Source: Magnetococcales bacterium (GTDB lineage Bacteria; Pseudomonadota; Magnetococcia; Magnetococcales; UBA8363). From it: a stretch of 64,000 nt of DNA. Below are positions 1 through 46,373 of this stretch, piece after piece; the first letter of the stretch is position 1; each line of letters starts with the position of its first letter. The stretch covers positions 1,515 through 65,514 of the forward strand of contig JADGCQ010000009.1 of NCBI GenBank assembly GCA_015228925.1, in the 5' to 3' direction. The position numbers were made by a program, and so were the translations under genes. A model generated the notes under the pieces. The model saw nothing but the letters and a program-made list of their open reading frames with translations. It ran no database searches and was not told the DNA's origin.

Positions 1-379
1 CGGCGACGACCGGAATAGTGGGATAACGTTCCAGGGTTTCCACAACCGCCTTGACAATATCGGCGGTGGCCAACATCCCCAGTTTGATACAGTCAACCCC
101 GATATCATCCAAAGCGGCACGCATTTGTTGGGCAACCAAGGTTCCCGTCACCGCCTGCACCCCAGTGACCTGGACGGTATCCTGGACCGTAATGGCGGTA
201 ACAGCGGCCTGGGGAATCCCCCCCAAATGGGTAATCATGCGGATATCCAATGGCAATCCGGCACCACAGGTGGGATCCATTCCGGCAACAGTCAACACCC
301 GTCCAGTGAAATACTCATCGCGCATGGTTGTCAAAGTGGTCGCCACTGTGTTAGTTGTCAGCCCTTGTGAGTAAATCAT
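1..379 (-). CDS. thiD: hydroxymethylpyrimidine/phosphomethylpyrimidine kinase ThiD, N-terminal part; the gene runs off the left edge
   Basis: My own minus-strand translation from ATG 379 gives ...RVLTVAGMDPTCGAGLPLDIRMITHLGG...IKLGMLATADIVKAVVETLERYP. This is colinear with the ThiD N-terminus (AGxDxxGGAG ribokinase-fold motif). It is absent from the ORF track because the frame is open at position 1. The start could be 379 or 325. Confidence 0.7.
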   Translation of the reverse strand, partial: MIYSQGLTTNTVATTLTTMRDEYFTGRVLTVAGMDPTCGAGLPLDIRMITHLGGIPQAAVTAITVQDTVQVTGVQAVTGTLVAQQMRAALDDIGVDCIKLGMLATADIVKAVVETLERYPTIPVVA

Positions 380-397
380 AGCCGCGCCGACGAGGTA

Positions 398-1990
398 ATG
401 ACCATGGCAAAAGTCCTGATTTCCGATAAAATGTCACCGGAAGCCGAGCAGGTTTTCCGATCCAGAGGGGTAGAAGTCGATTATCTTCCCGGTTTAACCC
501 CCGACGAGCTTAAAAAGAAACTCCCCGATTATGACGGTATCGCCATCCGTTCCGCAACCAAGTTGACCCAGGATCTGATCCAGGCGGCAACACGACTCAA
601 GGTAATTGGTCGTGCAGGCATCGGTGTGGATAATGTGGATATTCCCGCTGCGTCCAAGCAAGGGGTCATCGTCATGAATGCCCCCTTTGGCAATTCGGTG
701 ACCACTGCCGAACAGACCATGGCCCTGATGTTGGGTGCCGCACGGCATATCCCTGCCGCGACCGCTTCTACCCGTCTGGGCAAGTGGGAAAAAAATGGTT
801 TCATGGGGCGAGAACTTGCGGGCAAAACCCTTGGGATCATCGGTACGGGAAATATTGGTTCCCTGGTGATCGACCGCTGCAAAGGGATGAAGATGGCGAT
901 TCTGGCCTATGATCCTTTCATCAGCAAAGCCAAAGCTTTGGACCTGGGGATCGAATTGGTCGAGAACTTGGACGATTTCTGGCCCCGGGTGGATGTTCTC
1001 ACCGTACACGCCCCGTTAACGCCCAAAACCCGGCATATCATCAATGGTGACGCCTTTGCCAAAATGAAAAAAGGGGTGATCGTCATCAACTGCGCCCGCG
1101 GTGGCATCGTCGATGAGACGGCTTTGTATGAGGCGTTAAAATCGGGCAAGGTTTTTGCGGCGGGCCTGGATGTCTTCGAGAAAGAACCCGCCAAGGAAAA
1201 CCCGTTATTTGGATTGGATAACGTGGTGCTGACCCCTCATCTTGGGGCATCGACCTCCGAGGCGCAAATCAAGGTTGCCGTCCAGATTGCCGAGCAAATC
1301 TCCGATTATCTCCTCAAGGGTACGGTTCAAAACGCCCTCAACATACCCGCCGTTTCGGAAAATGAACTGCCCGCATTGCGCCCTTTTCTCAATCTTGCCG
1401 ACAAACTGGGGACCACCTTGGGGCAACTGACCGAGACAGGGGTTCAATCCATCGAGGTGACCTACGAGGGCGAGGTCGCAGCACTCAATCATAAACCCAT
1501 CACCAACACCCTGTTGAATTCCCTGCTAACCCCCATGTTGGAGATTGGGGTCAATCTGGTCAATGCCCCCCTGATTGCCAAAGAGCGGGGGATCGTCGTT
1601 TCCGAGGTGATCCGCTCGCAGTCGAAAAAAGGGTTTACTTCGCTGATTTCGGTCTCGTTGATTACGGAAAAGCGGAAACGGTGTGTTTCGGGGACTTTGT
1701 CTTATGATCAACGGCCTCGTGTGGTCTCCATGAATGAGATCCCGATTGAGGCGACACCCGAAGGGAATTTGCTGTTTGTCGCCAACCAGGATTCTCCGGG
1801 GCTGATCGGTCGTGTGGGGACCATCTTGGGAGAGGCGGGGATCAATATCGCCAATTTTCATCTGGGACGGACCCACCAGGGGGGATCGGCCATCGCCTTT
1901 ATCAACATCGATCAAGATGTCCCCAAAGGGATCATGGAGCAACTCCTTCAGGTTCCCAACGTCCTGGAAGTCAAGCTGGTACGCTACTGA
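398..1990 (+). CDS. serA: D-3-phosphoglycerate dehydrogenase (long form with C-terminal ACT domain)
   Basis: 530 aa. It has a 2-hydroxyacid dehydrogenase fold, the NAD loop GIIGTGNIGS, and a conserved HAPLTPKT...NCARGG region. The C-terminal ~130 aa are ASB/ACT-like. The start is ATG 398 or 404. Confidence 0.9.
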   Translation: MTMAKVLISDKMSPEAEQVFRSRGVEVDYLPGLTPDELKKKLPDYDGIAIRSATKLTQDLIQAATRLKVIGRAGIGVDNVDIPAASKQGVIVMNAPFGNSVTTAEQTMALMLGAARHIPAATASTRLGKWEKNGFMGRELAGKTLGIIGTGNIGSLVIDRCKGMKMAILAYDPFISKAKALDLGIELVENLDDFWPRVDVLTVHAPLTPKTRHIINGDAFAKMKKGVIVINCARGGIVDETALYEALKSGKVFAAGLDVFEKEPAKENPLFGLDNVVLTPHLGASTSEAQIKVAVQIAEQISDYLLKGTVQNALNIPAVSENELPALRPFLNLADKLGTTLGQLTETGVQSIEVTYEGEVAALNHKPITNTLLNSLLTPMLEIGVNLVNAPLIAKERGIVVSEVIRSQSKKGFTSLISVSLITEKRKRCVSGTLSYDQRPRVVSMNEIPIEATPEGNLLFVANQDSPGLIGRVGTILGEAGINIANFHLGRTHQGGSAIAFINIDQDVPKGIMEQLLQVPNVLEVKLVRY

Positions 1991-1996
1991 CCACGG

Positions 1997-3205
1997 ATGA
2001 CAACCCCATCGGTCCCCCGGCTCACTGTCGTCATCCCCAGCCGCAGTGAGCCGGACCCTGTTTTCCCTCTGGTGTCTTTGGCTGACTGCGACAAACCGGA
2101 TACTTCTGTTGAGGTTATCGTGGTCATCAACGGTTCCGAAGAAGATGAGGATCGGGATCGTCTGGCGAACGTGCGTGCGCGGGATATGGTGACGGCCTGG
2201 GTTGATGATCACCACAATCTATCCTTTGATGTGACGGTACAGTATCATCCGCGTTTGCCACAACGCCAAGCGGGGGTGGGATTGGCGCGGCGGTTGGGGA
2301 TGGATGCGGCGTGTGAAAATTTATTGCGTGCAACACCCAAAAGGCCGGGAATCATCGTTGCCCTGGATGCCGATTGTCGGGTGGCCTCCAATTATTTGAC
2401 CGCTTTGGTTGAACATTTCCAGAAACATCCGAAAACGGGTGGTGCCTCTCTCTACTTTGAACACCCTTTGGACGGTTTGCCGCCGTGGCATCGTGCCGGT
2501 ATTGTTGGATATGAATTATTTTTGCGTCTCTACCGGCAGGGTTTGATCGTCGCCGGATCTCCCCATGCTTTCCACACCGTTGGTTCCGCCATGGCGGTGC
2601 GTGCAGACGTTTATCGGCGTTTGGGAGGGATGAATCGCCGTCAGGCGGGGGAAGATTTTTATTTTTTACAAAAAGTCATGGCCCATGGTCCTTTTTCCGA
2701 TCTGACGACGACCACCGTTTTTCCATCGCCGCGCATTTCGCATCGTGTCCCCTTTGGTACCGGACGTGCCATGGGCAAGTGGTGTGAAAAGGATACGGGG
2801 ACGTTCATGAGTTATGATCCCCAGGTGTTTTCAGATTTGCGCTCTTTTTTTGGGTACGTTCAGGAATTGTCACAGAATCAAGGTACAAAATTTGCTTGTT
2901 CCTCCCCTGTTCTGGCACAATTTTTGGAACAACAACATTTTGATCAGGCCCTGGAAGAACTTCGTACCCATACGGCCACCCCCGATGCTTTCATGAAGCG
3001 TTTTTTTGTTTGGTTCAATCCATTCAGAATATTAAAATGGACCCATTTTGCCACCGAGTGTCATTATCCCAAAATACCCGTATTCCAGGCCGCTTCTACC
3101 CTGCTCGACTGGTTGGGGAGTACTGCGAAAGGGTTGCCTGGAACGGAGGAAGAACTATTGCAGCTCTTCCGCGAGAGGGACCGCAGGGGAGCGTTGGAAA
3201 GGTGA
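1997..3205 (+). CDS. family 2 glycosyltransferase (GT-A fold), specificity unknown
   Basis: 402 aa. It shows an N-terminal LTVVIPSRSE beta-strand start, an ALDADC DxD-like motif and GEDFYFLQK. It begins 7 nt after the serA stop and ends 5 nt before the next gene. Confidence 0.6.
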   Translation: MTTPSVPRLTVVIPSRSEPDPVFPLVSLADCDKPDTSVEVIVVINGSEEDEDRDRLANVRARDMVTAWVDDHHNLSFDVTVQYHPRLPQRQAGVGLARRLGMDAACENLLRATPKRPGIIVALDADCRVASNYLTALVEHFQKHPKTGGASLYFEHPLDGLPPWHRAGIVGYELFLRLYRQGLIVAGSPHAFHTVGSAMAVRADVYRRLGGMNRRQAGEDFYFLQKVMAHGPFSDLTTTTVFPSPRISHRVPFGTGRAMGKWCEKDTGTFMSYDPQVFSDLRSFFGYVQELSQNQGTKFACSSPVLAQFLEQQHFDQALEELRTHTATPDAFMKRFFVWFNPFRILKWTHFATECHYPKIPVFQAASTLLDWLGSTAKGLPGTEEELLQLFRERDRRGALER

Positions 3206-3209
3206 ACCC

Positions 3210-4265
3210 ATGAAGCATGATGATGAATTGACCGAGAAAATCCACAACACGGATGAAAATGGCAAAATACAACGCGATTCAGACTCTCAAGGGATGGTTT
3301 TCAGCAGCCCTGCCATGAAAACCTTGTTGAAGCGCGCCCATCATGTGGCCACACTCGATCTGCCCGTACTCATCCAGGGGGAATCGGGGACCGGTAAAGA
3401 TGGTCTGGCACGACTCATTCATCATGCGTCATCCCGGAGAAATCAGCCCTTTATTTGCGTCAATTGCGGTGCCATCCCTGAAAATCTTGTGGAAGCGGAA
3501 CTCTTTGGTCATGAAAAAGGGGCATTTACCGGGGCACTCCTAGCGCGGAAAGGTTATGTCGCTGAGGCAGACAAAGGGACACTCTTCCTCGATGAAATCG
3601 GTGAATTGCCTTTGGCTACCCAGGTTAAACTTCTCCGCGTACTTCAGGAACGGGAAGTGACAGCGGTGGGTTCGGTGCATCCCCGTCAGGTAGATTTTCG
3701 AATTTTGGCGGCAACCAATCGCGATTTATGGCAAGAAGTTGGCCGAGGCCGTTTTCGTAATGATCTGTTCCATCGCCTTGCGGTGGCTGTTTTCACCATT
3801 CCACCGCTACGAGAACGCTCAGAAGATTTGGAAGAATTGATCCAACTTTTTGTTGAAAAGATTAACCGGGATATGATTCGCCATCCCGGTTTTGACAAAA
3901 AACGCAAACTATCCGATACAGCCCTCACCCTTTTACGCCATCACACTTGGCCAGGCAATATTCGTGAACTGTATAATACACTGCTCCGAGCCATTCTTTG
4001 GAGCGAACACAATGTCGTTAAAGTCAAAGACGTTCAAGACGCCATGTTTGGTATTCACTTGGCACCACCGGCAACCATCCTGGGTCGCGAATTCAGCCGC
4101 GATTTTAAACTGAGCGAGCTATTGACGCAGGTGGCCGACCACTATTTTGAAAAAGCCCTGAGCGAAAGTGGTGGCAATAAATCTTTGGCAACCCGTTTGC
4201 TGGGATTGCCCAACGCCACCACATTTTCCAATTGGAGAAAAAAGTATCCTTGGAAAAAAACATAG
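3210..4265 (+). CDS. sigma-54-dependent transcriptional activator (AAA+ plus HTH only, no receiver or sensor domain)
   Basis: Motifs present are Walker A GESGTGKD, the GAFTGA loop (GHEKGAFTGA), Walker B LFLDEIGEL and a C-terminal Fis-type HTH (GNKSLATRLLGLPNATTFSNW). I trimmed the track ORF (3048) to the in-frame ATG at 3210, just after the upstream stop. Only about 30 aa precede the AAA+ core. Confidence 0.85.
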   Translation: MKHDDELTEKIHNTDENGKIQRDSDSQGMVFSSPAMKTLLKRAHHVATLDLPVLIQGESGTGKDGLARLIHHASSRRNQPFICVNCGAIPENLVEAELFGHEKGAFTGALLARKGYVAEADKGTLFLDEIGELPLATQVKLLRVLQEREVTAVGSVHPRQVDFRILAATNRDLWQEVGRGRFRNDLFHRLAVAVFTIPPLRERSEDLEELIQLFVEKINRDMIRHPGFDKKRKLSDTALTLLRHHTWPGNIRELYNTLLRAILWSEHNVVKVKDVQDAMFGIHLAPPATILGREFSRDFKLSELLTQVADHYFEKALSESGGNKSLATRLLGLPNATTFSNWRKKYPWKKT

Positions 4266-4274
4266 AATATCTCA

Positions 4275-4997
4275 TCAAAAACGCCGTCCTACCCAAACAA
4301 CCCGCCCCACAATCGACAACCGCTCCGCTTGTTCCAGGGTGATTTTAATATCCTCGTAGGCGTCATTGTCATTTTTGATGGTCACCGAACCGTCAAATCC
4401 CCGTTGTAACCGTTTGGCGACCAGATCTTCATCCCGCCGCATGACATAAATAGCATCATTGCGCATGCTGTGATCCCTCTGATCCAGTAACACCAAATCC
4501 CCTTCCTTTAAGGTTGGTTCCATGGAATCCCCAACAATGCTGACCAAGGCAATTTTTTTCGGATCCAGGCGCATGACCGAATGGATCCAATCGGACTTGA
4601 AAGCGATGTGATCCACAACCTGTCCACAATGAAAAGGATCTTCGGTTTCTCCGCTGACCTGGATGCTGAAACGCGGGACGATGACATAAGATTGTGGTGG
4701 AACGTGGTACTGCTCTCCCGGTTCTCTGGCCATGGTTATCGAATCGTCTGAAGGGACGACCGAGACATGGTTTAACCATGGATGCCCCTTTCCAGTCAAA
4801 AGCCAATTAATGGAAATATTGGTATTCATGGCGATTTTGATGAGGGTGCTTGTTTGCGGACACGCCCCCTTATTCAAGATACCCGCCAAAGTGGATTTGC
4901 CCAGTCCAATGCGGGCCGCAAACGCATAGGGACGTTCTTTGCCAATCACAAATTCCAGACGTTCTTTCAGTTGATCCATAGGAAGTTTTTCGGGCAT
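4275..4997 (-). CDS. cI/LexA-type repressor: N-terminal XRE-family HTH plus C-terminal S24 self-cleaving peptidase
   Basis: The HTH region is AFAARIGLGKSTLAGILNKGACPQTSTLIKIAMNTNISINWLLTG. The S24 region is VGDSMEPTLKEGDLVLLD...VAKRL (Ser/Lys dyad context). I chose ATG 4997 (MPEKL) because GGAG lies about 9 nt upstream; the track start at 5027 has no SD. Confidence 0.8.
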   Translation of the reverse strand: MPEKLPMDQLKERLEFVIGKERPYAFAARIGLGKSTLAGILNKGACPQTSTLIKIAMNTNISINWLLTGKGHPWLNHVSVVPSDDSITMAREPGEQYHVPPQSYVIVPRFSIQVSGETEDPFHCGQVVDHIAFKSDWIHSVMRLDPKKIALVSIVGDSMEPTLKEGDLVLLDQRDHSMRNDAIYVMRRDEDLVAKRLQRGFDGSVTIKNDNDAYEDIKITLEQAERLSIVGRVVWVGRRF

Positions 4998-5017
4998 GGC
5001 CATCTCCATAAATGTAA

Positions 5018-6057: not shown

Positions 6058-6741
6058 CTAAAGCACTTTTTTCAAGGATTGCTCAATTCTATTGGACATG
6101 GAAGAGATTTCGCTGATCACCCGGTCGATATCTCCGGCCAGGTCTCTGGCAACACGGGCGGTGCTTTTCACTTCGCCAGCGACGACGGCGAACCCTTTGC
6201 CGAATTCGCCGGCACGCGAGGCTTGAATACCGGCGTTGATAGCCAACACTTCAAGTTCATTGGATATTTTTTCAATTCCATGGAGTGTTTTAGAAACGTC
6301 ACGGGTATTGCGGTCGATTTCCTGCCGCACGCTTGACAGGTCGGTGAAAACCTGATCATTGGCCTTGTTGCGGTTTTCTTCGATGATTGTGATGAACAAC
6401 ATGGCAGCACTCAGGCTGATGACCTGAGCGGTCCCCCGGTTGTTATGGAGAAAGTCTGACGTTTCAGAAGATTCCGAGGCATCGAGGATCAGATCGGCGG
6501 CAAAGTTTTTGACGGCCATTTCCGGCTTGGTCAAGGTTTTGATGCCCAAGCGCATGGCCAGGGTCATCGCTGGGGCATTGGCGTCGGGATCGACGACATA
6601 GATTGGCTCGGCCCCTTTGCTCTTCTGGAAAATTTCCAAAAGGTTTTTACTTTTTTCGCCACCGCCGACGATACCGACTTTTTTTTTGCCTTCACTTGTT
6701 TCCATTTTCCACTCCAACGTTTGCCCACCCAACAGTCCCAT
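6058..6741 (-). CDS. atypical short protein: Rossmann-like N-domain fused to a minimal methyl-accepting chemotaxis (MCP) signalling-tip segment
   Basis: The C-terminal ELEVLAINAGIQASRAGEFGKGFAVVAGEVKSTA matches the invariant MCP hairpin tip (LALNAAIEAARAGExGRGFAVVAxEV). The N-terminal KKVGIVGGGEKS...IYVVDPD resembles a dinucleotide-binding beta-alpha-beta unit. There are no TM, HAMP or methylation helices. Total length is 227 aa. Confidence 0.7.
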   Translation of the reverse strand: MGLLGGQTLEWKMETSEGKKKVGIVGGGEKSKNLLEIFQKSKGAEPIYVVDPDANAPAMTLAMRLGIKTLTKPEMAVKNFAADLILDASESSETSDFLHNNRGTAQVISLSAAMLFITIIEENRNKANDQVFTDLSSVRQEIDRNTRDVSKTLHGIEKISNELEVLAINAGIQASRAGEFGKGFAVVAGEVKSTARVARDLAGDIDRVISEISSMSNRIEQSLKKVL

Positions 6742-15253: not shown

Positions 15254-16773
15254 ATTTACAAAAAATATCTGCGAAAATACAGGAATGGCACCTTTTCGTG
15301 GCGATATGCCTATATCATTTTATATTGGCACTTTATTATAAGGAAGTTTCGGGAGTCTCTATAGAGACTTCATGGAATCTTTGGACTATGCAACTGATCC
15401 CAAGGGATCTTCTTGAACATAAATTCCTGGAAAGCCTTTGGAATCTGCACGTGCAACCGCCCCTTTATAATGTTTTGGCAGGGATGATCCTTAAATTATC
15501 CCCTTCCAATTATTACCCAATTATGCATTATTTTAATATAGGACTTGGGACAATCGCAAGCGGAATGACATTTATTATTATTGCAACAATCACTCGAAAT
15601 CGGATATTTTCTTTTATCGTTGCTGCTCTCCTTATAAACAACCCAGCCATTTATTTATACGAAGCTTATAATTTATATGCCTTCCTTACAAGTTATTTTG
15701 TTATACAGTCTGTCTTTTTTGTAGCTTGTTTTGTCCGGGACAAAAAATCCCATAACCTTATATTATTTGTTCTTTCTCTCAATCTTTTAGCCTTGACGCG
15801 GGGCAGTTTCCATTTATTTGTCCCTTTGTCGGGTTTGTTTTTCTCATGTCTTATTGTTCCAAGGCGTGAGGTATTTCGGGTGTTTTTTTTGTCGTTATTG
15901 ATGTGCATTCCCACATTAGGCTGGTATGGGAAGAATCAGGTTAAATTTGGATTCTTTGGTACAAGCAGTTGGTTAGGTGGCAATTTTTTCAATGCTGTTC
16001 TTGGGGGATACCAATACCGGGACACACCAGAAGCGCGGAGTTATGTTGATAATCTTGTTGCCAAAGGGATCATTGATCCTATGGTAGGTCGGTATCCTAC
16101 GGCCCTGTTGAGTGTGGCAACTATTCGGGAGGAGGGGTTTAACAAACAATCGACGATTGAGGCTCTGAATAGAGAAAATTTTATGAATATCAATTATATC
16201 GATGTTTATAAAGTTTATTTACGCAGTTCCCTTAATGTAATCAGGTATGATCCGGTGCAGTGGTTAAAGATTATTTCCACATCTTATGAGAGGTATTGCC
16301 GCCCTTCAACGGTTTTCAAGCATCTTATTTATGGCCGGACGAAAAATGAACCAGGCAACGCTGCGAAAATGACGTTGCCTGTGTTCGTCTATGAAAATAT
16401 TTTCCTTGGCAAGCAATGGATGCGTCCTAGTAACCAACCGGGTGGAATCAAGATGGGATCTATTTTATTTTTTGTTTTTCCCTTGTCGTTTGTATTGTAT
16501 CTGGTGCTGCTGTTGCGGGAGGGAAATGCGTCCTGGTGTGGCATTATCGGTTACATCAGAGATAATCCTATCCTGTTTGTCATTCTAACCTTTGTACTCT
16601 ATAGCACCCTGGTCTCGTGCATGTTTGCTTACGATGAGAATGAGAGATATAAATTTGATATTGAACAAGTATTCTACGTTGGTCTTGCGGGTATCTGCTA
16701 CACGTTATGGCCTCGATCATCGTTTCGGCCACCAGGGTGCGTGATCGGATCTTCCTTCTGCTCAACAGGCTGA
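15232..16773 (+). CDS. polytopic membrane protein, GT-C fold glycosyltransferase-like (ArnT/PMT family 39/83-like)
   Basis: It has at least 10 predicted TM helices, an early periplasmic-loop motif LHVQPPLYNVL (compare the conserved xPPL of ArnT/PMT) and a large loop in the C-terminal half. ATG 15232 (MAVNSK) overlaps the upstream stop. The gene is AT-rich. Confidence 0.6.
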   Translation: MAVNSKVYLQKISAKIQEWHLFVAICLYHFILALYYKEVSGVSIETSWNLWTMQLIPRDLLEHKFLESLWNLHVQPPLYNVLAGMILKLSPSNYYPIMHYFNIGLGTIASGMTFIIIATITRNRIFSFIVAALLINNPAIYLYEAYNLYAFLTSYFVIQSVFFVACFVRDKKSHNLILFVLSLNLLALTRGSFHLFVPLSGLFFSCLIVPRREVFRVFFLSLLMCIPTLGWYGKNQVKFGFFGTSSWLGGNFFNAVLGGYQYRDTPEARSYVDNLVAKGIIDPMVGRYPTALLSVATIREEGFNKQSTIEALNRENFMNINYIDVYKVYLRSSLNVIRYDPVQWLKIISTSYERYCRPSTVFKHLIYGRTKNEPGNAAKMTLPVFVYENIFLGKQWMRPSNQPGGIKMGSILFFVFPLSFVLYLVLLLREGNASWCGIIGYIRDNPILFVILTFVLYSTLVSCMFAYDENERYKFDIEQVFYVGLAGICYTLWPRSSFRPPGCVIGSSFCSTG

Positions 16774-16841
16774 CGATGTTCATAAATTTGCGAAGGCTTC
16801 TGAATTTCTTGGTCCGGTTGGCCCAAACGATGATCAAGGCC

Positions 16842-20753: not shown

Positions 20754-21146
20754 GTGACTGAAGAATCCCGACCAACAAATATCGCCGTAACCGCAGTAAC
20801 CCAATATCTGGAATCCCACTCCAATCCAGAAAAAGGGGAGTACGCCTTTGGCTATGCCATTACCATCCGTAACGATGGTCCCAAACCGGCACAATTGTTA
20901 CGCCGACATTGGATGGTGACTTCTGATAATGGTCGCCATCAGGAGGTGCGTGGCGAGGGGGTCGTGGGGGAAAAACCACGCTTGGAACCGGGTGAGGTAT
21001 TCAACTACAACAGTTGGGCCGTGTTGGAAACCCCCACAGGCCACATGGAGGGGCGTTATATGTTTGTCACCGACGAAGGGGAACGGTTTTGGACACCAAT
21101 CGCGCCATTTTTTATGGAAGTTCCCGGTGCCAGAGTTCTCAATTAA
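20754..21146 (+). CDS. apaG: ApaG (DUF525) protein
   Basis: 130 aa, colinear with ApaG: YAFGYAITIRNDG...RHWMVTSDNGRHQEVRGEGVVGEKPRLEPGEVFNYNS...GHMEGRY. The start is GTG. Confidence 0.85.
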   Translation: MTEESRPTNIAVTAVTQYLESHSNPEKGEYAFGYAITIRNDGPKPAQLLRRHWMVTSDNGRHQEVRGEGVVGEKPRLEPGEVFNYNSWAVLETPTGHMEGRYMFVTDEGERFWTPIAPFFMEVPGARVLN

Positions 21147-21163
21147 ACGCCACACCCTAGGGC

Positions 21164-21616
21164 GTGTTGACATTCAATTAAATAAAACTATTAAAATAAA
21201 AAAGGGGTCTGGGGGATTGCCCCCAGGGTTTTGATTTTGGTTTTGATTTTCATGCGCCCCTTATCCCGAAGCATTTTTTTCGCGCTTTTTGTTTTTGCGA
21301 AAAAAATGCGCAGGGCGCACGCCTTCGCTTGATGTTTTTCGCGGTTTTTGCGAAAAACATCAAGCATAATGCAATGTTTTTACACCGTCAACATTGCATT
21401 GTGTTTGCCTTCTTTCGCAAAAACCGCGAAAGAAGGCAAACCAAGGCGCACGCCTGCGCATTTTTCCCTTTAAAAGAAAAGGCACGGGAAAAATGCTTCG
21501 GGATAAAGGGCGCGTAAAAAGCAAAATCAAAATCAAAACCCTGGGGGCAATCCCCCAGACCCCTTTTTTCTTTTAATAATTTTTTAGGGGGGCAATAAAT
21601 TATCGAATGTCAACAC
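21164..21616. repeat. MITE/PATE-like nested palindromic element, copy A (core 21191-21576)
   Basis: - **Outer inverted repeat:** GTGTTGACATTC (21164-21175) pairs with GAATGTCAACAC (21605-21616).
- **Terminal inverted repeats (TIR):** TTAAAA(T/G)AAAAAAGGGGTCTGGGGGATTGCCCCCAGGGTTTTGATTTT on the left and its reverse complement on the right.
- **Internal hairpins:** 21271-21309, 21331-21361, 21368-21400 and 21403-21441.
- **Terminator features:** each TIR contains a GC hairpin (CTGGGGG/CCCCCAG) followed by a T-run, so it looks like a terminator in both directions. Confidence 0.85.
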
Positions 21617-21619
21617 CCC

Positions 21620-22270
21620 CTAAAAGGGGGAAGAAAACATACCCGTCAAAAATGGGTTATGTTTCCGTTCCGCCCCCAGAGTGGTGTCAGGCCCGTGGCC
21701 TGGATGGCAAACTATGTTGTCTCCCAAGGGAAGCAACCGTTTTTTGATGGAATGGAGCAACTGGCTATGATTTCCACCCGGAAGGTCGGTGCGACCAATG
21801 GAACCCTGAAACAACGTATCCCCGACCGCCATACTGTCTCCCCAGCGTAGACAAACGCCACCAGGGGTATGTCCAGGGGTGTGAATGACGTGAATCTCCA
21901 TCCCCGATACCTGAAGGGTTTCGTCGTCCGCAAGTTCCCGATCAATGGTGGGCGCAGAACCAAACGGCAACCCCCAAGCCCGTGCATGTTGCTTGGCAGC
22001 CGCAACCAAAGAGGCATCCCCAGGATGAATCCAAAATTCACACCCAGTCTTTTCCTTTAAATCGGTTACACCACCCAAATGGTCAAAATGACCGTGGGTG
22101 TTGATAATGTGGGTCAACTTCGCCCCCAATCGATCCAACTGCACCAAAATCCGGTCAGCATCACCACCAGGATCCATAATCACCGCCAATCCTTCCTCAC
22201 GGTTGACCAATATCTGACAATTGACTTGGAGAACGCCCGCTTCCATGGCAAGATGATAGGGTGTAACCAT
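21620..22270 (-). CDS. MBL-fold metallo-hydrolase (glyoxalase II / GloB-like)
   Basis: The metal motif is HTHGHFDHLGG, with HTPGHTPG and a C-terminal GHG also present. 216 aa. Confidence 0.85.
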   Translation of the reverse strand: MVTPYHLAMEAGVLQVNCQILVNREEGLAVIMDPGGDADRILVQLDRLGAKLTHIINTHGHFDHLGGVTDLKEKTGCEFWIHPGDASLVAAAKQHARAWGLPFGSAPTIDRELADDETLQVSGMEIHVIHTPGHTPGGVCLRWGDSMAVGDTLFQGSIGRTDLPGGNHSQLLHSIKKRLLPLGDNIVCHPGHGPDTTLGAERKHNPFLTGMFSSPF

Positions 22271-31848: not shown

Positions 31849-31866
31849 ATCAATAAACAAAAATTA

Positions 31867-32085
31867 TTAAAAGAAAAAAGGGGTCTGGGGGATTGCCCCC
31901 AGGGTTTTGATTTTGATTCTAAAAAAAAAGATTTCCATGTTTAAGCTTTTGACTTTGTTTTTGAATTGAAACAAAGTCAAAAGCAAAATCAAAAGCGGAA
32001 AATGGAAACCTTTTTGTTTAAAGTCAAAATCAAATTCAAAATCAAAACCCTGGGGGCAATCCCCCAGACCCCTTTTTTCTTTTAA
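31867..32085. repeat. MITE/PATE-like nested palindromic element, copy B
   Basis: It has the same TIR as copy A (TTAAAAGAAAAAAGGGGTCTGGGGGATTGCCCCCAGGGTTTTGA and its reverse complement). The interior hairpin is GCTTTTGACTTTGTTT/AAACAAAGTCAAAAGC. It lies between convergent genes. Confidence 0.85.
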
Positions 32086-32113
32086 TCATTTATTTTTCGT
32101 CCCCATCCAAAGA

Positions 32114-46073: not shown

Positions 46074-46106
46074 TTAGGGGAGAAAAATCCCCGGACCTTA
46101 AAATTA

Positions 46107-46298
46107 TTAAAAGAAAAAAGGGGTCTGGGGGATTGCCCCCAGGGTTTTGACTTTGTTTTTGAATTGAAACAAAAAGGTTTCCATGCCCTGCTTTTGACTT
46201 TGTTTCAATTCAAAAGCAAATTCAAAAACGGAAAAGGGAGCTTTTTGTTTAAAATCAAAACCCTGGGGGCAATCCCCCAGACCCCTTTTTTCTTTTAA
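46107..46298. repeat. MITE/PATE-like nested palindromic element, copy C
   Basis: Its TIRs are identical to those of copies A and B. The interior shares modules with copy B (GACTTTGTTTTTGAATTGAAACAAA; GGAAAAnGGAnnCTTTTTGTTTAAA) in a different arrangement. It lies between the rlmE stop and the guaB start. Confidence 0.85.
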
Positions 46299-46373
46299 TA
46301 ATTGAATTCAATTTCAATAACGTCCCAGCCCCAACTCTAGCACGGAATCGGCAAACGCCCAATAGCCCAAATC

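What the first reader, a model, noticed from the sequence alone, without database searches (positions are those of the whole stretch)
21164..21616. 450-bp nested palindrome between apaG and an MBL hydrolase: MITE/PATE-like element loaded with internal hairpins
**Overall structure.** The whole intergenic space is one imperfect palindrome.

**Layers.**
- The outer arms are GTGTTGACATTC and GAATGTCAACAC.
- Next come ~85-nt arms that start with the conserved TIR AAAAGGGGTCTGGGGGATTGCCCCCAGGGTTTTGATTTT.
- Each arm carries its own private hairpin. For example, GCATTTTTTTCGC (21271-21283) pairs with GCGAAAAAAATGC (21297-21309).
- The centre holds three independent perfect hairpins of 11-16 bp stems, at 21331-21361, 21368-21400 and 21403-21441. 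Several use TTTCGC/GCGAAA stems.

**Coding potential.** It has no credible coding capacity. The track ORFs at 21329-21517 and 21394-21576 are low-complexity read-through.

**Other copies.** Two further copies with identical TIRs but different interiors occur at 31.9 and 46.1 kb.

**Terminator-like ends.** Each TIR is a GC-rich stem-loop followed by a T-run in both orientations, so the element would act as a bidirectional intrinsic terminator.

**Possible class.** The hairpin-rich ends resemble the substrates of Y1 (IS200/IS605 TnpA or REP-associated RAYT) transposases, but no such gene is in this window.
Basis: partly seen in the sequence, partly recalled or inferred. Interest (0 to 1): 0.6.

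Follow-up and report, generated by a model that had tools for sequence, protein, structure and literature searches.

The report
Mosaic palindromic intergenic repeat, Magnetococcales
The 465-bp palindrome between apaG and the MBL-hydrolase gene is a non-coding, long-form copy of a previously undescribed hairpin-forming mobile repeat family that is abundant in Magnetococcales genomes and whose ends look like two-way transcription terminators; it is a new example of a familiar kind of bacterial junk-or-helper DNA.

Summary
**Observation: confirmed.** Window 21158-21622 is a 465-bp nested palindrome. Each strand folds with a z-score of -26 to -30. It has five perfect private hairpins and a 39-nt TIR that occurs six times in the window, as three inverted pairs.

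**What it is.** It is one member of a multi-copy, modular intergenic repeat family.
- Many copies sit at contig ends.
- Some copies are singlets; others are inverted doublets 88-486 bp long.
- Sharply bounded optional outer "caps" occur.
- Interiors are interchangeable.

**Copy 1.** It belongs to a rare long-interior subfamily seen at non-orthologous loci in three other genomes. Stem changes are compensated there, and the small ORFs are broken.

**Orthologous sites.** The element is absent from the orthologous apaG-MBL spacer in relatives. The nearest relative has elements at a site that is empty in the window.

**Terminator reading.**
- Each TIR is a GC hairpin followed by a T-run.
- Elements are enriched between convergent genes.
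- Terminator-homing group II introns have inserted at the same TIR point three times.

**Not established.** I found no transposase, no RAYT and no consistent target duplication. The mobilising mechanism, and the PATE/Y1 suggestion, therefore remain unproven.

**Verdict.** A new member of a known kind (REPIN/BIME/MITE-like), of moderate interest.

The parts
21158..21622 (.). Copy 1: complete 465-bp element of the long-interior subfamily, with cap A at both ends. It lies between the convergent apaG (ends 21146) and MBL-fold gene (stop TAG at 21620-21622).
   Evidence: Inverted repeats are, and folds. Homologous copies at other loci are L050 (93% identical), L006, L074, L030 and L014.
21158..21178 (+). 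Left cap A module (TA)GGGCGTGTTGACATTC, short form.
   Evidence: The motif was found 21 times in the sample. Sixteen of these lie 40-67 nt outside a canonical core, in the same orientation, and sequence upstream of them is unique.
21574..21622 (-). Right cap A module, long form (TAGGGGGTGTTGACATTCGATAATTTATTGCCCCCCTAAAAA). Its outer TAG is the MBL stop codon.
   Evidence: The same long form occurs in L024, L030, L033 and L043.
21184..21250 (+). Left TIR, in three parts: the A-rich lead ACTATTAAAATAAAAAAGGGGT; the core hairpin CTGGGGGATTGCCCCCAG (21209-21226); and a (GGTTTTGATTTT)x2 hexamer run. It is terminator-like for transcripts arriving from apaG.
   Evidence: The tandem repeat is D6.
21517..21583 (-). 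Right TIR, the mirror of the left one, with its core hairpin at 21541-21558. It is terminator-like for transcripts arriving from the MBL gene.
21251..21516 (.). Long interior, in order:
- arm CATGCGCCCCTTATCCCGAAGCA;
- left-arm hairpin 21271-21309;
- hairpin A 21327-21365;
- central hairpin about 21368-21400;
- hairpin C 21403-21441;
- right-arm hairpin 21458-21496.

It is non-coding.
   Evidence: Hairpins are. The ORFs are broken in homologues and have no Pfam hit.
31855..32097 (.). Copy 2: 243-bp short-interior element between a convergent SDR gene and a FliI/T3SS-type ATPase gene. Its left end is shared at the orthologous site in DCbin2 (start of L023).
46102..46303 (.). Copy 3: 202-bp short-interior element, downstream of the FtsJ/RlmE gene and upstream of IMPDH (tandem genes on the minus strand).
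3190..3210 (.). Empty site. Two nearly contiguous genes lie here. The closest relative, DCbin2, carries at least two family elements plus a group II intron at the same junction.
   Evidence: L023 and L027 versus the window.

Best explanation
**What it is.** Window 21158-21622 is a non-coding copy of a modular, hairpin-forming, mobile intergenic repeat family specific to freshwater Magnetococcales.

**Basic unit.** The unit is a roughly 50-nt terminus made of three parts:
- an A-run;
- a 7-bp GC stem with a 4-nt loop;
- a T-rich TTTTGA hexamer run.

**How units are arranged.**
- Two units in inverted orientation bracket an interchangeable palindromic interior.
- Optional outer caps (A: GGGCGTGTTGACATTC; B: GTAACCGTTCAG) extend the inverted repeat.
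- Copy 1 is the cap-A, long-interior form.

**Mobility (inferred).** Copies have spread within each genome by a trans-acting enzyme that recognises the conserved termini. Recognition is probably of hairpins on single-stranded DNA, REPIN/RAYT-like. The reasons are that singlets exist, no target duplication is visible, and stems stay perfectly paired despite sequence change.

**Function once inserted (inferred from sequence and location).** Each terminus faces the neighbouring gene as a GC hairpin followed by a U-run. The element therefore works as a two-sided intrinsic terminator or 3'-end stabiliser. That would explain why copies are tolerated, and why their termini are conserved, downstream of genes.

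**Shown.**
- The structure.
- Copy number and species range.
- The modules.
- Presence/absence differences.
- The non-coding nature.
- Compensatory stem changes.
- Intron homing into the TIR.

**Inferred.**
- The mobilising enzyme and the single-strand mechanism.
- Actual termination.
For: **Multi-copy and wide range.**
Many are at contig ends.
- There are 125 cores in 0.55 Mb, forming 27 inverted doublets with 48-422 nt between their cores (elements 88-486 bp), plus mid-contig singlets.

**Modularity.**
- Caps lie at fixed offsets with sharp outer borders. An element usually carries the same cap at both ends.
- Interiors are interchangeable.

**Mobility.**
- Copy 1's interior is 93% identical to L050, which lies at a non-orthologous locus.
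- The element is absent from the apaG-MBL spacer of nHA5abin3 and DCbin4.
- DCbin2 has a filled site where the window is empty.
- The outer TIR consensus differs between lineages.

**Constraint on the termini.** At an orthologous site, TIR plus cap are about 95% identical. The adjoining spacer is unalignable and the coding flank is about 78% identical.

**Structure is maintained.**
- Five stem pairs carry double compensatory changes among four copies.
- Hairpins A and C within copy 1 differ at 5 of 16 stem positions, yet both are perfect.

**Terminator-like.**
- Consensus scan.
- Hairpin of -14 to -18 kcal/mol followed by UUUUGAUUUU.
- Convergent 17, tandem 23, divergent 4, against a background of 73/230/77.
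- RT plus maturase group II introns are inserted exactly between the stem and the T-run in L014, L023 and L068. IIC introns are typically found downstream of terminator motifs (PMC1702495).

**Non-coding.**

**REPIN parallels.** Inverted REP doublets that form hairpins, singlets as remnants, and extragenic location (PMC3116915).
Against: - No mobilising gene was found. There was no Y1/RAYT hit (the weak L039 hit is spurious). No transposase appeared among multi-copy ORFs or in TIR-bracketed intervals. Only 0.58 Mb of fragmentary MAG DNA could be searched.
- No clean filled/empty pair was obtained, so the exact boundaries and the absence of a TSD are not proven. TA precedes 8 of 12 intact cap-A ends, which would also fit a TA-duplicating DDE (IS630/mariner-type) transposase.
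- Core invariance is partly forced by the exact-match scan.
- Compensatory stem changes can arise without selection, through template-switch correction of quasi-palindromes (own knowledge).
- The gene-orientation statistic rests on crude ORF calls. It mis-assigned all three window copies: copies 1 and 2, which are convergent, were called tandem, and copy 3, which is tandem, was called convergent.
- Termination is untested.
Confidence: 0.8

Rival explanations
1. It is a classical MITE: an internally deleted derivative of a DDE-type insertion sequence, for example an IS630/Tc1-mariner-like element that targets TA. It would be mobilised as double-stranded DNA through its long TIRs. On this view the hairpins and the terminator behaviour are by-products.
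For: - Small size, long TIRs, dispersed copies and presence/absence differences.
- TA, often CTA, immediately precedes intact cap-A ends (8 of 12).
- For copy 1, TA flanks both ends, and removing the element plus one TA restores an intact MBL stop codon.
- Subterminal hexamer repeats resemble multiple transposase-binding sites.
Against: - No consistent duplication occurs at the inverted-repeat boundaries of uncapped or cap-B elements.
- TA is palindromic, so it cannot be told apart from TIR sequence.
- No DDE transposase and no full-length parent were found in the sample.
- Intact singlets and compensated internal hairpins are not expected to matter for a dsDNA cut-and-paste substrate.
Confidence: 0.3
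2. These are ordinary host terminators and regulatory palindromes, not mobile DNA. They would look alike because of convergent sequence constraints and gene conversion between intergenic hairpins.
For: - Terminator-like anatomy and location bias.
- Singlets next to genes in DCbin4 look like plain bidirectional terminators.
- A distantly related species has a different hairpin with the same GGGTCTGGG...CCCAG frame downstream of its MBL gene.
Against: - More than 50 nt of identical non-stem sequence, plus caps and 250-nt interiors, are shared at non-orthologous loci at up to 93% identity. This is far beyond what terminator function requires.
- Lineage-specific presence at otherwise conserved sites.
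- Contig breaks at copies.
Confidence: 0.05
3. The long interior of copy 1 encodes a structured non-coding RNA carried as cargo between the termini. Its hairpins would be conserved for an RNA function.
For: - Conserved multi-hairpin architecture across three or four species, with compensatory pairs.
- Very low folding energy.
Against: - Both strands fold about equally well (-283 versus -296 kcal/mol).
- Stems are almost entirely Watson-Crick and perfect, as expected for a DNA palindrome.
- No Rfam family matches. Only sub-threshold miRNA-hairpin noise was seen.
- No convincing promoter is present.
- The terminator-like TIRs would block entry of flanking transcripts.
- Only about 8 copies are known.
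Confidence: 0.07

Closest known systems
REP / REPIN elements mobilised by RAYT (Pseudomonas, Enterobacteria; PMC3116915, PMC3337134)
   Same: - A short palindromic unit repeated many times in extragenic space.
- Inverted doublets with a spacer that fold into one long hairpin.
- Singlets also exist.
- Pairing is kept despite sequence change.
- No visible target duplication.
- The family is shared by related species.
   Different: - No RAYT has been found.
- The conserved unit is longer (about 50 nt, with A- and T-runs) and lacks the GTAG-type motif.
- Doublets are longer and far more variable (88-486 bp, against about 70-110 bp).
- Doublets carry interchangeable interiors and caps.
BIMEs / Rhizobium RIMEs (bacterial interspersed mosaic elements)
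   Same: A mosaic of a palindromic unit combined with several other conserved motifs in variable combinations. Located in intergenic regions, often at 3' ends.
   Different: The sequences are unrelated. Here the modules are arranged symmetrically as nested inverted repeats around a palindromic interior, not as alternating PU/linker arrays.
Bacterial MITEs with regulatory side-effects, such as Neisseria Correia elements (own knowledge)
   Same: Roughly 100-500-bp non-coding elements with TIRs, at high copy number and intergenic. They can act as terminators. A TA target is possible.
   Different: Correia elements have 26-bp TIRs, a proven TA duplication and a fixed interior. Here the TIR is at least 50 nt with an internal hairpin, the interiors vary, and duplication is unproven.
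IS200/IS605-derived PATEs
   Same: Hairpins near the ends, non-coding, and no target duplication.
   Different: PATE ends are not inverted repeats of each other. Their hairpins lie on the same strand, and insertion is next to a fixed tetra- or pentanucleotide. Here the ends are true inverted repeats, and no such target or TnpA/TnpB remnant is seen.
Bidirectional rho-independent terminators
   Same: An A-run, a GC stem-loop and a T-run, located between convergent genes. They are used as homing sites by terminator-seeking group II introns (PMC1702495).
   Different: Ordinary terminators are not 200-470-bp repeats shared between loci and species.

Membership tests
MITE | Small (under about 600 bp) and without coding capacity | tested here: met
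   Elements are 88-486 bp. The ORFs have no Pfam hit and are broken in homologues.
MITE | Terminal inverted repeats | tested here: met
   Arms of 53-131 nt at 87-98% complementarity. The ends are identical across copies.
MITE | Many dispersed copies, with presence/absence between genomes | tested here: met
MITE | Target-site duplication of fixed length | tested here: inconclusive
   No direct repeat occurs at the inverted-repeat borders. TA precedes 8 of 12 intact cap-A ends but cannot be separated from TIR sequence. No clean empty site was obtained.
MITE | An autonomous IS sharing the termini | tested here: inconclusive
   None was found in 0.58 Mb.
REP/REPIN-RAYT | A short imperfect-palindrome unit, highly repeated and extragenic | tested here: met
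   There are 125 hits to the 18-nt core hairpin; only 3 of 47 classifiable elements fell inside an ORF call, and all three are doubtful calls.
REP/REPIN-RAYT | Inverted doublets with a spacer that form a hairpin; singlets also present | tested here: met
   There are 27 doublets, plus mid-contig singlets.
REP/REPIN-RAYT | A cognate RAYT (Y1 HUH transposase) gene flanked by the repeats | tested here: inconclusive
Whole genomes could not be searched.
IS200/IS605 PATE | Same-strand subterminal hairpins without TIRs, and a fixed short target 5' of the left end | tested here: not met
   The ends are true inverted repeats. No conserved one-sided target was seen.
BIME-type mosaic element | A palindromic unit combined with other conserved motifs in variable arrangements | tested here: met
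   Caps A and B, a third cap-like motif, hexamer runs, and at least four interior types.
Intrinsic terminator | A GC-rich stem-loop directly followed by a U-run, at gene 3' ends | tested here: met
   All three window copies lie downstream of at least one gene. Elements are enriched between convergent genes.
Intrinsic terminator | Termination of transcription demonstrated | not testable with these tools
   This needs Term-seq, RNA-seq or a reporter assay.
Known structured RNA (Rfam) | A match at a family's gathering score | tested here: not met
   No hits in the window. Only sub-threshold miRNA-hairpin matches were seen.

The most novel reading that the evidence does not exclude
The family may be a REPIN-like, vertically persisting 'mobile terminator' system of Magnetococcales. 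On this reading:
- It is mobilised by an as yet unidentified, possibly new, single-strand hairpin-recognising enzyme.
- Its termini are kept by host-level selection because they supply bidirectional terminators.
- Its interchangeable hairpin interiors, such as the 265-nt three-hairpin core of copy 1, are structurally selected cargo rather than debris.
Probability: 0.15. Interest if true: 0.6.

Novelty: new member of a known kind. Interest (0 to 1): 0.35.

Why it matters
- **Genome assembly.** These repeats fragment Magnetococcales MAG assemblies; about 40% of sampled copies sit at contig ends. Recognising the family helps assembly and annotation of magnetotactic cocci.
- **A possible natural experiment.** The family may show how a selfish palindromic repeat can double as a ready-made two-way terminator.
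- **Group II introns.** The family provides a defined, repeated homing platform for terminator-seeking group II introns.
- **If a cognate enzyme is found.** It would extend REPIN/RAYT-type systems, or a new analogue, to a deep-branching proteobacterial lineage.
- **What it does not change.** It does not alter current concepts, because comparable families are well known in other bacteria.

Tried and rejected
- **Known RNA family.** Rfam at gathering score on the window and on 20 loci gave nothing for the element. A permissive scan gave only miRNA-precursor hairpin noise.
- **tRNA/tmRNA.** None.
- **Coding interior.** Rejected.
- **Promoter in cap A (TTGACA).** No consistent -10 box at the proper spacing (and inspection).
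- **Autonomous parent or transposase.**
  - Clustering of 1437 ORFs gave only ordinary paralogue families.
  - ORFs in TIR-bracketed intervals are housekeeping or R-M genes.
The one weak hit beside an element is the antisense strand of an acetyltransferase gene.
- **Exact-protein look-ups.** The window's ApaG and MBL proteins found nothing, so the window's genome is not in that collection.
- **Metagenome scan for the long interior.** It returned only the already known C5_bin.1 copy.
- **Other collections.** The viral scan and the plasmid BLAST were empty.
- **Literature.** Searches for Magnetococc* with MITE or REP terms returned no papers.
- **L032 as orthologue of the apaG locus.** Rejected: it is only a paralogous gene match.
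- **Target-site duplications.** The systematic search was negative or inconclusive.

Full report
**1. Observation**

- **Extent.** Window 21158-21622 (465 bp) fills the whole spacer between the convergent ApaG gene (PF04379, ends at 21146) and an MBL-fold gene (PF00753, stop TAG at 21620-21622).
- **Inverted repeats.**
  - Outer arms 21158-21178 / 21602-21622: 21 nt, 90% complementary.
  - Main arms 21184-21314 / 21453-21583: 131 nt, 87%.
  - A second layer 21314-21378 / 21390-21454: 65 nt, 78%.
- **Local hairpins.** Five are perfect:

| Arms | Stem |
|---|---|
| 21271-83 / 21297-309 | 13 bp |
| 21327-42 / 21350-65 | 16 bp |
| about 21368-21400 | 11 bp |
| 21403-18 / 21426-41 | 16 bp |
| 21458-68 / 21486-96 | 11 bp |

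- **Folding.** Either strand folds into one very long stem capped by a three-hairpin junction.
  - ssDNA: -184.8 kcal/mol, z -26.
  - RNA: -283 and -296 kcal/mol for the two strands, z -30 and -27.
- **TIR copies.** The 39-nt TIR occurs six times in the window, as three inverted pairs. Shuffles gave none. These three elements account for essentially all long inverted repeats in the 64 kb.

**2. It is a family, not a local oddity**

- **Range.** All were in Magnetococcales MAGs: DCbin2, DCbin4, nHA5abin3, C5_bin.1 and Magnetococcus sp. DMHC-6. A large share lay at contig ends, as expected for assembly-breaking repeats.
- **Counts.** In the window plus those loci (0.55 Mb) there are 125 cores. 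They include 27 inverted doublets with 48-422 nt between their cores.
- **Singlets.** Mid-contig singlets also occur. Some doublets have a partner with a variant loop.
- **Source of the window.** It comes from a relative of DCbin2, at 91-95% nucleotide identity. Its best MBL orthologue is only 88% identical, so its genome is not itself in the collections.

**3. Anatomy**

Aligning all ends shows a modular design. From the outside in:

1. An optional cap.
   - Cap A is (TA)GGGCGTGTTGACATTC, with a short or a long linker.
   - Cap B is GTAACCGTTCAGnCCCCCC.
   - A third cap-like motif, CAGGGCAATCGCATTTG..., also recurs.
2. ATTATTRAAAGAAAAAAGGGGT.
3. The core hairpin CTGGGGG-ATTG-CCCCCAG.
4. A run of TTTTGA(Y)TTTG hexamer/12-mer repeats of variable number. 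L044 has (GATTTT)x9.
5. An interchangeable palindromic interior.

Further points on the caps:

- They sit 40-67 nt outside the core, always in the same orientation, with unique sequence beyond them.
- An element usually has the same cap at both ends.
- Copies 2 and 3 are uncapped, short-interior elements (31855-32097 and 46102-46303).

**4. Copy 1 belongs to a rare long-interior subfamily**

- **Other copies.** Its 265-nt interior recurs in:
  - DCbin2: L050 (93% identical, with different flanks), L074, L030, L014, and a truncated copy in L049;
  - C5_bin.1: L006, which is the same as metagenome contig L081;
  - nHA5abin3: L010.
- **Compensatory changes.** Across four alignable copies, 103 predicted pairs include five with compensatory double changes, all in hairpins A and C.
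- **Within copy 1.** Hairpins A and C are mirror-image paralogues. They differ at 5 of 16 stem positions, yet each is perfectly paired.
- **Coding potential.** The small ORFs are interrupted by stops or frameshifts in the other copies and have no Pfam match, so the interior is non-coding.
- **RNA families.** No Rfam family matches. Only sub-threshold miRNA-hairpin noise appears.
- **Interpretation.** Both strands fold about equally well and the stems are almost purely Watson-Crick. That favours a DNA-level palindrome over a strand-specific RNA.

**5. Evidence for mobility**

- (a) Near-identical copies lie at non-orthologous loci (section 4).
- (b) The orthologous MBL-apaG spacer lacks the element in relatives.
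  - In nHA5abin3 it is 369 nt of unique sequence.
  - In DCbin4 it holds a mazE/PIN pair and a small ORF.
  - C5_bin.1 and UR-1 have other neighbours.
- (c) At window position ~3190-3210 two genes are nearly contiguous. In DCbin2 the same junction carries at least two elements and a group II intron.
- (d) Copy 2's left end is shared with DCbin2 at the orthologous site. Some insertions therefore predate that split and others postdate it.
- (e) Each lineage has its own consensus for the outer TIR. DMHC-6, for example, has TTATTATTTAAAAAAAAAGGGG.
- (f) At a site shared by C5_bin.1 and DCbin2, TIR plus cap stay about 95% identical. The adjacent spacer is unalignable and the coding flank is about 78% identical.

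Caveat: core invariance across loci is partly imposed by the exact-match scan.

**6. How it moves is not resolved**

- **No enzyme found.**
  - No transposase occurs among multi-copy ORFs.
  - None occurs in short TIR-bracketed intervals.
  - There is no significant Y1/RAYT match. The one weak hit is spurious.
  - Only 0.58 Mb of fragmentary MAGs could be searched.
- **No consistent duplication.** No consistent target duplication is seen at the inverted-repeat borders.
- **The TA observation.**
  - TA precedes 8 of 12 intact cap-A ends.
  - For copy 1, TA flanks both ends. Removing the element and one TA would leave an intact TAG stop for the MBL gene.
  - This fits a TA-duplicating DDE element. 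But TA is palindromic and may simply be TIR sequence.
- **My assessment.**
  - Singlets, inverted doublets that fold as hairpins, stems that stay perfect, and the lack of a visible duplication fit a REPIN/RAYT-like single-strand mechanism better (features as in PMC3116915).
  - I therefore rank that above a classical MITE, but not by much.
  - The PATE comparison fails on anatomy, because the ends are true inverted repeats.
  - Perfect stems could also be produced by template-switch correction of quasi-palindromes, without selection (own knowledge).

**7. What it does where it sits**

- **Terminator anatomy.**
  - Read from either flanking gene, the near TIR is a 7-8-bp GC stem (-14 to -18 kcal/mol). 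It is followed two bases later by UUUUGAUUUU.
  - Read outward, the same stem is followed by ACCCCUUUUUUCUUUU.
- **Location in the window.** All three copies lie downstream of at least one gene: copies 1 and 2 between convergent genes, copy 3 between tandem genes.
- **Location in the sample.**
  - Elements are enriched between convergent genes (17 of 44, against 19% background).
  - They are depleted between divergent genes (4 of 44, against 20%).
  - Chi-square is about 11.8 (my arithmetic). The gene calls are crude.
- **Independent support from introns.**
  - Group II introns with an RT-plus-maturase protein and no endonuclease domain have inserted at exactly the same point. The junction reads ...CCCCCAGACC | intron | CCTTTTTTC...
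  - This is seen in three loci of two species (L014 with both junctions, L023 and L068).
  - Class C introns are characteristically found just after terminator stem-loops (PMC1702495).
- **Conclusion.** A bidirectional terminator or 3'-end protective role is therefore the best-supported function. It remains an inference.

**8. Comparison and novelty**

- The family works like REP/REPIN/BIME mosaic repeats and like terminator-forming bacterial MITEs such as Correia elements.
- It shares no sequence with them. It matched nothing in plasmids or viral contigs.
- No paper in the searchable library links Magnetococcales to MITE or REP elements.
- I rate it a new member of a known kind.
- Somewhat unusual features are the nested caps, the interchangeable hairpin interiors, and the 50-nt terminus that doubles as a two-way terminator.
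- Interest is moderate (0.35). It would rise if a cognate, possibly new, mobilising enzyme or demonstrable host benefit were found.

Noticed in passing
L014 76-~1935 (+); L023 6809-6879 (-); L068 1068-~1340 (-): Group II introns (Rfam RF00029 and RF02001). The encoded protein is 443 aa with RVT_1 and GIIM domains and no endonuclease domain. They are inserted at the identical point of the repeat's TIR, between the stem-loop and the T-run (CCCCCAGACC|GTGCG...CCCTAT|CCTTTTT), in DCbin2 and DCbin4. The L014 and L068 intron copies are 95% identical.
   Followed up: yes
window 3190-3210 versus L023 6500-6889 and L027 1306-1494: Two nearly contiguous genes in the window are separated in DCbin2 by at least two repeat elements, a cap-like module and a group II intron. 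This is a clear filled-versus-empty difference between close relatives.
   Followed up: yes
L082 1575-2760 (DCbin4): The same MBL-apaG spacer that holds copy 1 in the window holds a MazE-antitoxin/PIN toxin pair plus a small ORF in DCbin4. This convergent spacer appears to be a recurrent landing site for different mobile DNA.
   Followed up: partly
L012 4321-6359: A DNA cytosine-methyltransferase-like ORF and an adjacent restriction-enzyme-like ORF lie bracketed by two repeat elements (4067-4324 and 6426-6646).
   Followed up: no
L070 2400-2640; also L032, L039, L042, L057, L059 (DCbin4): There is a different double-hairpin module, ACATCCCCCACAGGGGGTTTGGGGGACGAAGTCCCCCAAGG. It serves as the interior in DCbin4 elements and is tandemly triplicated in L070. 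DMHC-6 uses yet another module (GCAGGGGGATTGGGGGATGCCATCCCCCAAGG).
   Followed up: partly
L044 ~4945-5000: The subterminal hexamer is expanded to (GATTTT)x9. This indicates slippage-type length variation in the TTTTGA run.
   Followed up: no
L023 5-1838 and 3309-6499 versus window 31891-30058 and 1-3190: One DCbin2 contig joins, about 1.5 kb apart, two regions that lie about 27 kb apart and in opposite relative orientation in the window. This is a rearrangement between the two close genomes.
   Followed up: no
L079 3680-3716: In a more distant Magnetococcales MAG the contig ends 80 nt after the MBL gene. It ends in a different 12-bp hairpin built on the same GGGTCTGGG...CCCAG frame, which may be a remote relative or a native terminator.
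   Followed up: no
window 16709-16841: An unrelated 28-nt inverted repeat (86% complementary, 77-nt spacer). It is the only other long inverted repeat in the window.
   Followed up: no
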